DNA from: a virus
IMG/VR virus record: IMGVR_UViG_3300015263_000599
Span: 1 to 64,000 of that record
Length of the DNA: 64,000 nucleotides
Direction: 5' to 3' (one strand)
This document shows positions 21,568 through 21,623 of the stretch, one piece after another. Made by a program: the position numbers and the translations under genes. Below the pieces are notes generated by a model. That model worked only from the letters and a program-made list of their open reading frames with translations. It did no database searches and was not told the origin of the DNA. The first letter of the stretch is position 1. Every line of letters starts with the position of its first letter.

Positions 21568-21623
21568 GCTTCGCAATCAGTCGGTGTGTGGCCTTTCGGC
21601 ACCTCGGCGTTGGACTACGAAGC
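21568..21623 (-). ncRNA. Solo stem-loop tigRNA-like unit 1
   Basis: GCTTCGTAGT-CCA-ACGCCGAGG-TGCCGAAAGGCCA-CACACCGAC-TG-ATTGCGAAGC; 10-bp closing stem (2 G-U). Confidence 0.8.

What the first reader, a model, noticed from the sequence alone, without database searches (positions are those of the whole stretch)
21568..21623. Stand-alone stem-loop guide overlapping the stop codon of the sigma-like gene
Seen: outside the array and upstream of a terminator, a complete CCA-9nt-TGCCGAAAGGCCA-9nt-TG unit is closed by a 10-bp stem. The 5' arm of the stem includes the last codons and TAG of ORF 21615..22190. Spacers are ACGCCGAGG/CACACCGAC. Inference: a box C/D snoRNA-like guide excised from an mRNA 3' UTR, so dual-repeat and stem-loop guide formats coexist in one locus.
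Basis: partly seen in the sequence, partly recalled or inferred. Interest (0 to 1): 0.8.

Follow-up and report, generated by a model that had tools for sequence, protein, structure and literature searches.

The report
Lone hairpin guide beside TIGR array
A virus with a known RNA-guided DNA-cutting system (TIGR-TasR) has, besides its normal tandem guide array, a single complete guide unit sitting in the loop of an older hairpin at the end of a neighbouring gene; this is a new variant of a known system, and its expression has not been tested.

Summary
On the minus strand, 21623..21568 holds box C (CCA), a 9-nt spacer, the 13-nt loop repeat of the neighbouring array, a 9-nt spacer and box D (TG). 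A 10-bp stem (two G-U pairs) closes it, and its 5' arm contains the last codons and TAG of ORF 22190..21615.

It belongs to a TIGR-Tas locus. A 10-unit dual-repeat array (21479..21068) and a TasR gene (20970..19960; E 2.6e-80 to PDB 9MTY) lie just downstream. A second stem-closed unit (SL1, 22282..22217) sits at the polA stop.

A covariance model built only from stem-loop guides of other viruses ranks SL1 and this unit first and second in the window.

New here: removing exactly the 36-nt core makes the window gap-free collinear with a syntenic relative that has only a small hairpin at that spot. The core therefore sits in the loop of a pre-existing hairpin. The unit is absent from both syntenic TasR relatives.

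Both guide formats are published, but for different Tas clades. I did not find one locus with both described in the papers searched.

Expression, TasR binding and targets are untested or not found. 'Sigma-like' is unproven. The scan has seen scattered solo stem-loop guides in other phages, but none noted beside a dual-repeat array.

The parts
21568..21623 (-). SL2, the finding: a stem-closed solitary TIGR guide unit. 5' arm 21623..21614, 36-nt core 21613..21578, 3' arm 21577..21568.
   Evidence: 31.8 bits, E 4e-5, full-length match with every stem pair standard
21578..21613 (-). 36-nt core: box C, spacer A, loop repeat, spacer B, box D. It is an insertion relative to L009 and to L008/L011.
   Evidence: deleting exactly these 36 nt makes the window gap-free collinear with L009
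21615..22190 (-). ORF191 (191 aa), a conserved phage protein of unknown function that always follows polA. Its last codons and TAG lie in the SL2 5' arm.
22217..22282 (-). SL1, the second stem-closed unit: 13-bp stem, CCA, 9-nt spacer, loop repeat TGTCGAAAGACCA, then a 9-nt spacer followed by TT (or a 10-nt spacer followed by TG). Its 5' arm overlaps the polA TGA stop.
   Evidence: z -4 to -5.2; 33.7 bits, E 1.5e-5
22281..23588 (-). Family-A DNA polymerase gene (435 aa), upstream in the same orientation.
21508..21538 (-). Intrinsic terminator (13-bp stem plus T-run) 30 nt downstream of SL2. It separates SL2 from the array.
21068..21479 (-). Dual-repeat TIGR array: 10 units, period 40, edge repeat TGYGARCCA, 13-nt loop repeat with a covarying mini-stem and GNRA loop.
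21048..21073 (-). Terminator-like hairpin at the end of the array.
19960..20970 (-). TasR (336 aa): RuvC plus Nop domain, of the dual-repeat clade.
   Evidence: (9MTY E 2.6e-80; TasH E 1.7e-11)

Best explanation
SL2 is a genuine guide unit of the local TIGR-TasR system that stands alone in stem-loop format.

Shown:
- It has the two box C/box D pairs, the 9-nt spacing and the exact loop repeat of the neighbouring array.
- It lies on the same strand, about 600 nt upstream of tasR.
- It sits in the apical loop of a hairpin that already existed at the ORF191 stop codon, so the old hairpin arms now close the guide.

Inferred:
- It is transcribed as the 3' end of the polA-ORF191 message, which stops at the terminator 30 nt further on.
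- It lacks full edge repeats, so it is probably not cut out by TasR itself. More likely it is trimmed back to the protective stem by host RNases, as proposed for stem-loop tigRNAs.
- A TasR dimer would then bind the two box pairs and use the two spacers (ACGCCGAGG and CACACCGAC) on opposite strands of an 18-bp DNA site.
- This would give the virus one guide (two with SL1) expressed with its replication genes and independently of the array promoter.
For: - All defining boxes are intact with exact spacing. A truly decayed unit looks different: array unit 7 has damaged boxes and the SL1 copy in L009 has lost box C.
- The same 13-nt loop and the same layout occur in stem-loop guides directly after distant TasA-like genes in seven other virus contigs. 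In those guides the closing stem covaries (86% of cells paired, 0 of 500 shuffles as high).
- Model R1, built only from those foreign units, ranks SL1 and SL2 first and second among all hits in 64 kb. Array units score lower, are truncated, or have non-standard pairs.
- SL1 is kept at the polA stop in relative L009 with a completely different 13-bp stem. This argues that stem-closed units are maintained in this lineage.
- The terminator downstream places SL2 inside a transcription unit.
Against: - There are no expression or binding data.
- SL2 is absent from both syntenic TasR relatives (L009, L032).
- Its stem is inherited from an older hairpin, so the stem is not evidence of selection on the guide.
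- The TasR is of the dual-repeat clade with the C-terminal extension. The literature says that TasR processing of minimal arrays needs full edge repeats (PMC12045711), that stem-loop clades have lost that C-terminal loop to make room for the stem (10.64898/2026.09.09.750476), and that unprocessed ends impair cleavage by TasH (PMC13421893).
- A ribosome terminating at the TAG would melt the 5' arm.
- No convincing target was found.
Confidence: 0.55

Rival explanations
1. SL2 is a recent, neutral stray copy. One array unit core was copied into the hairpin loop by recombination or repair. It is young enough to look intact, but it does no work and will decay.
For: - It is present only in this virus and absent from L009 and L032.
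- The closing stem pre-dates the insertion.
- The SL1 copy in L009 has lost box C, which shows that such singletons do decay.
- No target was found.
Against: - The insertion sits exactly at the loop apex and runs exactly from box C to box D, which produces a perfect stem-loop guide. That is an unlikely outcome for a random event.
- There is a second intact singleton with its own 13-bp stem 600 nt away.
- The same format is the working format in other viruses.
Confidence: 0.25
2. SL2 is a cis-acting TasR-binding site on the polA-ORF191 message, acting together with SL1. TasR binding would control the stability, processing or translation termination of ORF191, which the two elements bracket. The spacers themselves would not matter.
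For: - The two units bracket ORF191 and each overlaps a stop codon.
- A hairpin at the ORF191 stop is conserved with compensatory changes in L008, L009 and the window, even without a guide. Some RNA-level function therefore already sits there.
Against: - L032 has the same genes and a TasR but neither element.
- About 78 polA-ORF191 phage loci have no Tas and no guide units at all.
- No TIGR paper read here reports Tas acting on mRNA.
Confidence: 0.12
3. SL2 is the orphaned first unit of the array. The array once began directly after the ORF191 stop, as it does in L032, and a terminator and promoter segment was later inserted behind unit 1.
For: - In L032 the array starts 5 nt after the same GTAGT that ends ORF191.
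- The SL2 3' arm contains TGCGAAGC, which matches the edge repeat TGCGAACC in 7 of 8 positions.
Against: - The segment behind SL2 (CTGGTGGAG..., the terminator, then the array) is shared with L009, which has no unit at that site.
- The window minus the 36 nt aligns to L009 without any gap. This fits an insertion of the core better than a split array.
Confidence: 0.08

Closest known systems
Stem-loop tigRNAs of TIGR-Tas systems, in particular the subtype with a conserved loop that Faure et al. 2025 call a possible intermediate (PMC12045711 section 9). See also the PlTasA preprint (10.64898/2026.08.11.744272) and the TIGRFinder preprint (10.64898/2026.09.09.750476).
   Same: - Two 9-nt spacers, each between a box C (CCA) and a box D (UG).
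- A conserved central loop.
- A variable palindromic stem that abuts the outer boxes.
- A position outside the tas gene, here overlapping the end of a coding sequence. The preprint reports flexible and even intragenic positions.
- A full-length match to a model built from such units.
   Different: - It is solitary, not in a tandem stem-loop array.
- The only Tas found in the record is a nuclease-type TasR of the dual-repeat clade with its C-terminal extension. The papers assign stem-loop guides to other clades that lack that extension.
- The stem is borrowed from an older hairpin.
Dual-repeat TIGR arrays with TasR (PDB 9MTY; Faure et al. 2025)
   Same: - The loop repeat, boxes and spacer length are identical to those of the array 90 nt downstream.
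- It would presumably use the same TasR protein.
   Different: - There are no full edge repeats on either side (about 5 of 9 positions match on each side).
- It is not in tandem.
- It is separated from the array by a terminator.
- This family has a 40-nt period with a 13-nt loop, whereas TaTIGR was reported with 36-nt units.
Scattered solo stem-loop TIGR guides in phage genomes
   Same: Single hairpin guides sit in gaps between genes, away from the Tas gene.
   Different: Those notes describe TasA systems that have stem-loop guides only. Here the singletons accompany a dual-repeat array and a TasR.
Archaeal and eukaryotic box C/D s(no)RNAs
   Same: Two guide segments are each flanked by a box pair bound by a Nop-domain protein. 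Some are processed out of longer host transcripts.
   Different: - The boxes are CCA and UG rather than RUGAUGA and CUGA, and there are no k-turn motifs.
- Rfam gives no match.
- The partner is a RuvC nuclease fusion that targets DNA, not a methyltransferase complex.

Membership tests
TIGR tigRNA, stem-loop format | Box C (CNA), an 8-12-nt spacer and box D (TG), present twice and separated by a short loop | tested here: met
   CCA, 9 nt, TG, an 8-nt mini-hairpin, CCA, 9 nt, TG at 21613..21578
TIGR tigRNA, stem-loop format | A palindromic closing stem directly outside the outer boxes | tested here: met
   10 bp including 2 G-U pairs, z -3.44. Only two such units exist in the 94-kb record.
TIGR tigRNA, stem-loop format | A Nop-domain Tas gene in the neighbourhood | tested here: met
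   TasR at 20970..19960, about 600 nt downstream on the same strand
TIGR tigRNA, stem-loop format | Similarity in sequence and structure to accepted members | tested here: met
   Model R1, built from 8 units of other viruses, gives 31.8 bits and E 4e-5. The match covers positions 1-56 and every stem pair is standard.
TIGR tigRNA, stem-loop format | Units occur as a tandem array of several stem-loops | tested here: not met
   There are two dispersed singletons, SL1 and SL2, about 600 nt apart, and no others in the record.
TIGR tigRNA, stem-loop format | The partner Tas belongs to a stem-loop clade with a shortened C-terminal (Y/H) processing loop | tested here: not met
   The TasR is collinear with the 9MTY chain up to residue 325. 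H318 aligns with the catalytic H296 of SpTasH. No second Tas was found in the record, which is estimated 67% complete.
TIGR tigRNA, stem-loop format | The RNA is expressed, processed and bound by Tas | not testable with these tools
Dual-repeat TIGR array unit | Full edge repeats on both sides, in tandem with other units | tested here: not met
   The flanks match TGYGARCCA in about 5 of 9 positions on each side. A terminator lies between SL2 and the array.
Box C/D s(no)RNA | Canonical box C (RUGAUGA) and box D (CUGA) forming k-turns, and a match to a curated family | tested here: not met
   The sequence has only CCA and UG. Rfam gives no match in 20900..22400 at E up to 1, apart from an unrelated weak plus-strand hit.
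Intrinsic terminator | A GC-rich stem directly followed by a U-run | tested here: not met
   SL2 is followed by CUGGUGGAG. The terminator is a separate hairpin at 21538..21508.
Sigma-70 family (for ORF191) | Recognisable sigma region 2 and region 4 domains | tested here: inconclusive
   No Pfam or PHROG match. The AF2 model has pLDDT 75. Foldseek gives nothing below E 0.5. VIA-align gives Z 4.1-4.8 to seven sigma factors, a range the tool rates as non-specific for helical proteins.

The most novel reading that the evidence does not exclude
The locus may capture the birth of a stem-loop guide. A bare box-C-to-box-D core from a dual-repeat system was placed exactly into the apical loop of an existing hairpin, which instantly produced a stem-loop tigRNA that a dual-repeat-clade, nuclease-active TasR can use.

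If this is right:
- TIGR guide units would move as discrete cores, which is a clue to the still unknown way in which TIGR systems gain guides.
- Stem-loop systems would have evolved from dual-repeat ones by this route.
- One TasR would read both formats. The unprocessed stem-closed guides might program binding or nicking rather than full cleavage.
Probability: 0.2. Interest if true: 0.75.

Novelty: new variant of a known kind. Interest (0 to 1): 0.5.

Why it matters
TIGR-Tas is a young field (first described in 2025) and is being developed as a compact, PAM-free genome-editing tool. The papers read here treat dual-repeat and stem-loop guides as properties of separate Tas clades with separate maturation routes.

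A natural locus in which a close relative of the 9MTY TasR carries both formats would matter in three ways:
- It would give a direct test of whether such a TasR accepts stem-closed guides that need no Tas processing. That would be useful for guide design and guide stability.
- It would be a concrete evolutionary intermediate between the two architectures.
- Its filled-site versus empty-site comparison hints at how single guide units are inserted.

Surveys that look only for arrays would miss such singletons.

Tried and rejected
- **Chance or artefact:** rejected.
- **Known RNA family:** none found in Rfam.
- **Self-targeting:** all 12 guides, in both possible strand geometries, have no site with fewer than 3 mismatches in the 94-kb record or in 664 kb of related phage loci.
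- **Target of SL2 in IMG/VR:** one exact 18-mer hit for each geometry (L108, L109), in ORFs with no PHROG match. This is about what chance predicts.
- **Target of SL2 in 301 genomes of the order of a Pirellulaceae MAG that carries the same array type:** 5 and 4 hits at up to 1 mismatch, against 4 and 4 for the reversed control. There was one exact hit, in a phosphoglucomutase-type gene of one genome, and it is not conserved. I read this as chance.
- **Target geometry:** I could not settle the strand geometry from the papers' text.
- **More TasR relatives:**
  - Protein-pattern scans of the viral, metagenome and genome collections returned only the L009 contig or nothing.
  - DNA-pattern scans gave L031-L033 and L110.
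- **A stop-codon hairpin as a general feature of ORF191 genes:** not supported. It is seen only in the closest relatives.
- **The 36-nt insert as a reverse-copied mature tigRNA:** dropped. This family has a 40-nt period, so the mature RNA is probably 40 nt.

Full report
**Setting**

The window is the first 64 kb of a 94,452-nt IMG/VR virus record that is estimated 67% complete. All parts of the locus lie on the minus strand, in this order:
1. A family-A DNA polymerase gene, 23588..22281.
2. A stem-closed guide unit, SL1, 22282..22217.
3. ORF191, 22190..21615.
4. The finding, SL2, 21623..21568.
5. A strong intrinsic terminator, 21538..21508.
6. A 10-unit dual-repeat array, 21479..21068.
7. A second terminator-like hairpin, 21073..21048.
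8. A 336-aa gene, 20970..19960.
9. An HNH gene, 19830..19276.

The 336-aa protein matches PDB 9MTY at E 2.6e-80 over residues 5-325, and TasH structures at E 1.7e-11. The locus is therefore a TIGR-TasR system of the kind described by Faure et al. 2025 (PMC12045711).

The array units have a 40-nt period. The edge repeat is TGYGARCCA. The 13-nt loop repeat has two inner pairs that covary around a GNRA loop.

**Checking the observation**

The TAG of ORF191 lies inside the 5' arm.

- The fold is well below shuffled controls, with z -3.44 and 0 of 200 shuffles as stable.
- The exact 36-nt pattern occurs only in the array and here, and the reversed control gives zero hits.
- A general scan for box-flanked units closed by a stem of at least 7 bp finds only SL1 and SL2 in the whole record. 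Shuffled genomes give about 0.75 hits, and those come from a much looser pattern that does not require the specific loop.

**What kind of element it is**

The literature already describes two guide formats. One is the dual-repeat array. The other is the stem-loop unit, including a subtype whose loop is conserved 'similar to true loop repeats' and which the authors consider a possible intermediate.

I searched IMG/VR for the core pattern with this loop. It occurs in 16 contigs.
- In seven of them (L017, L021, L022, L024, L025, L029, L030, plus duplicates) the units are closed by stems.
- In six of those (all but L029) a distant Nop-only, TasA-like gene (22-28% identical to the Nop part of TasR) was found, and most units lie directly behind it.
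- Across nine such units, SL2 included, the closing stem covaries strongly. Of all cells, 86% are paired, against about 40% when the partner is slid by one to three columns. Eight of ten stem pairs show changes on both sides, and 0 of 500 shuffles reach the observed score.
- A covariance model built from the eight foreign units alone scores SL1 at 33.7 bits (E 1.5e-5) and SL2 at 31.8 bits (E 4e-5). These are the top two hits in the window. Both matches are full length with every stem pair standard. Array units score lower, are truncated, or have non-standard pairs.

By sequence and structure, SL2 is therefore a stem-loop-format TIGR guide.

**Relatives and origin**

ORF191 always follows polA in a large group of phages. 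Of 80 loci examined, 79 have polA next to ORF191. Only one of those 80, L009, carries a TasR. A further syntenic TasR locus, L032, came from the metagenome scan.

- **L009** (TasR 63% identical) has an SL1 equivalent at the polA stop. Its 13-bp stem is entirely different in sequence, its loop repeat is the same, and box C is missing. At the ORF191 stop it has only a 6-bp hairpin.
- **L032** (TasR 60% identical) has neither element. Its array starts 5 nt after the ORF191 stop.

The key result is. When exactly the 36-nt core (21613..21578) is removed, the window aligns with L009 without a single gap from the end of ORF191 through the shared CTGGTGGAG. The remaining arms form the same hairpin as in L009 and in L008/L011. 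Read from the alignment, three of the six aligned stem pairs differ from L009 on both sides.

The core therefore lies in the apical loop of a hairpin that is older than the insertion. The simplest history is an insertion in the window's lineage. One consequence is that the SL2 stem cannot be counted as evidence of selection for closing the guide. SL1 is different: relative to L008 the whole element, arms included, is extra, and its stem has been remade in L009.

**How it most likely works**

- **Shown:** the format, the identity with the local array's boxes and loop, the strand, the position inside a terminated transcription unit, and the presence of a TasR that keeps the RuvC aspartate aligned with D11 of the 9MTY chain.
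- **Inferred:** SL2 is transcribed with polA-ORF191.
- **Inferred:** Faure et al. report that minimal arrays are processed only if they have full edge repeats. SL2 has none, so it is more likely matured by host RNases trimming back to the stem, as the TIGRFinder preprint proposes for stem-loop guides.
- **Inferred:** a TasR dimer binds the outer and inner box pairs. The inner pair is already closed by a small helix, so a helix next to the outer pair is at least geometrically plausible.

Three points from the literature count against this reading.
- The preprint argues that stem-loop clades lost the C-terminal processing loop to make room for the stem. This TasR keeps that region, and its H318 aligns with SpTasH H296.
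- Blocked processing impaired cleavage by TasH.
- A terminating ribosome would open the 5' arm.

I put the functional-guide reading at 0.55, a neutral stray copy at 0.25, a cis-regulatory TasR site at 0.12 and an orphaned first array unit at 0.08.

**Targets**

No self-target was found, and no target was found in the related phage loci. Exact 18-mer searches in IMG/VR gave one hit for each geometry, which is what chance predicts.

A scan of 301 genomes around a Pirellulaceae MAG that carries the same array type gave hit numbers equal to the reversed control. It also gave one exact hit in a phosphoglucomutase-type gene, which is not conserved.

**ORF191**

The label 'sigma-like' is not established. 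There is no Pfam or PHROG hit and no significant PDB sequence hit. The AlphaFold model is all-helical with pLDDT 75. Foldseek finds nothing significant. VIA-align lists seven sigma factors at Z 4.1-4.8 with 15-24% identity, a range the tool itself rates as non-specific for helical proteins. This is a hint and no more.

**Novelty**

TIGR-Tas, dual-repeat arrays, stem-loop guides and guides at flexible or intragenic positions are all published. I did not find the combination seen here in the papers read:
- stem-closed singletons using the array's own loop repeat;
- beside a dual-repeat array;
- with a dual-repeat-clade, presumably active TasR.

Faure et al. assign the two architectures to different clades. 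The TIGRFinder preprint contains no 'hybrid', 'coexist' or 'both architectures', and its only uses of 'mixed' are in lab methods. Earlier notes of this scan describe scattered solo guides only in stem-loop TasA systems.

I rate this a new variant of a known kind, with moderate interest. It rests on one locus and has no expression data.

As a result, the loci of 12 close TasR homologues and any RNA evidence could not be examined.

Noticed in passing
window 22217-22282 (minus strand): SL1 is a second stem-closed guide unit. Its 13-bp stem overlaps the polA TGA stop. Its flanks keep edge-repeat-like pieces (GAGCCA before spacer A and TGCCCAGCCA after spacer B). Box D reads TT unless spacer B is taken as 10 nt. 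Relative L009 keeps it at the same place with an unrelated stem but without box C.
   Followed up: partly
L012/L013 about 3556-3600 (downstream of the ORF191 homologue): A phage with no TasR found in its record has CAA, 9 nt, then TGTTGAAAGACAT directly after ORF191. That 13-mer matches the loop repeat in 11 of 13 positions. It could be a decayed guide unit or chance.
   Followed up: no
L019 6488-6523 and L025 10599-10634 (minus strand), with flanks: In these stem-loop guides of other viruses, a long (8-12 bp) stem is separated from the boxes by 2 G-C pairs and a tandem purine-purine mismatch (AAGG opposite CCGA). This is a different stem-base design from the units whose stem abuts the boxes directly.
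   Followed up: no
window 21068-21479: Array details: units 8 and 9 share spacer B. The A spacers of units 9 and 10 match in 8 of 10 positions. Unit 7 has damaged boxes. The two spacers of unit 4 are partly complementary to each other. The 13-nt loop keeps its pairing through four different sequence variants.
   Followed up: partly
L110 600-880 (contig JAGFJK010000473.1, Pirellulaceae MAG): An 8-unit array of the same edge and loop type lies near the end of a contig binned with a Pirellulaceae genome. No TasR was found in that genome with this query. This is a possible host clue or a binned phage fragment.
   Followed up: partly
L118 711-728 (G148:C295): This is the only exact 18-mer match to the SL2 spacer pair (spacer A followed by the reverse complement of spacer B) in 301 Pirellulales-order genomes. 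It falls in a phosphoglucomutase/phosphomannomutase gene. It is a single, non-conserved hit, probably chance.
   Followed up: partly
L009 3581-3900, 5025-5340, 5850-5990: The relative carries three separate dual-repeat arrays around tasR. One of them lies behind a NUDIX-like ORF, and two adjacent units there are identical. Array number and placement are fluid in this family.
   Followed up: no
window 21615-22190 and loci L008-L107: ORF191 is a strongly conserved partner of polA in at least 80 uncultured phage contigs, some over 400 kb long. It has no family assignment. There are weak fold hints to sigma factors.
   Followed up: partly
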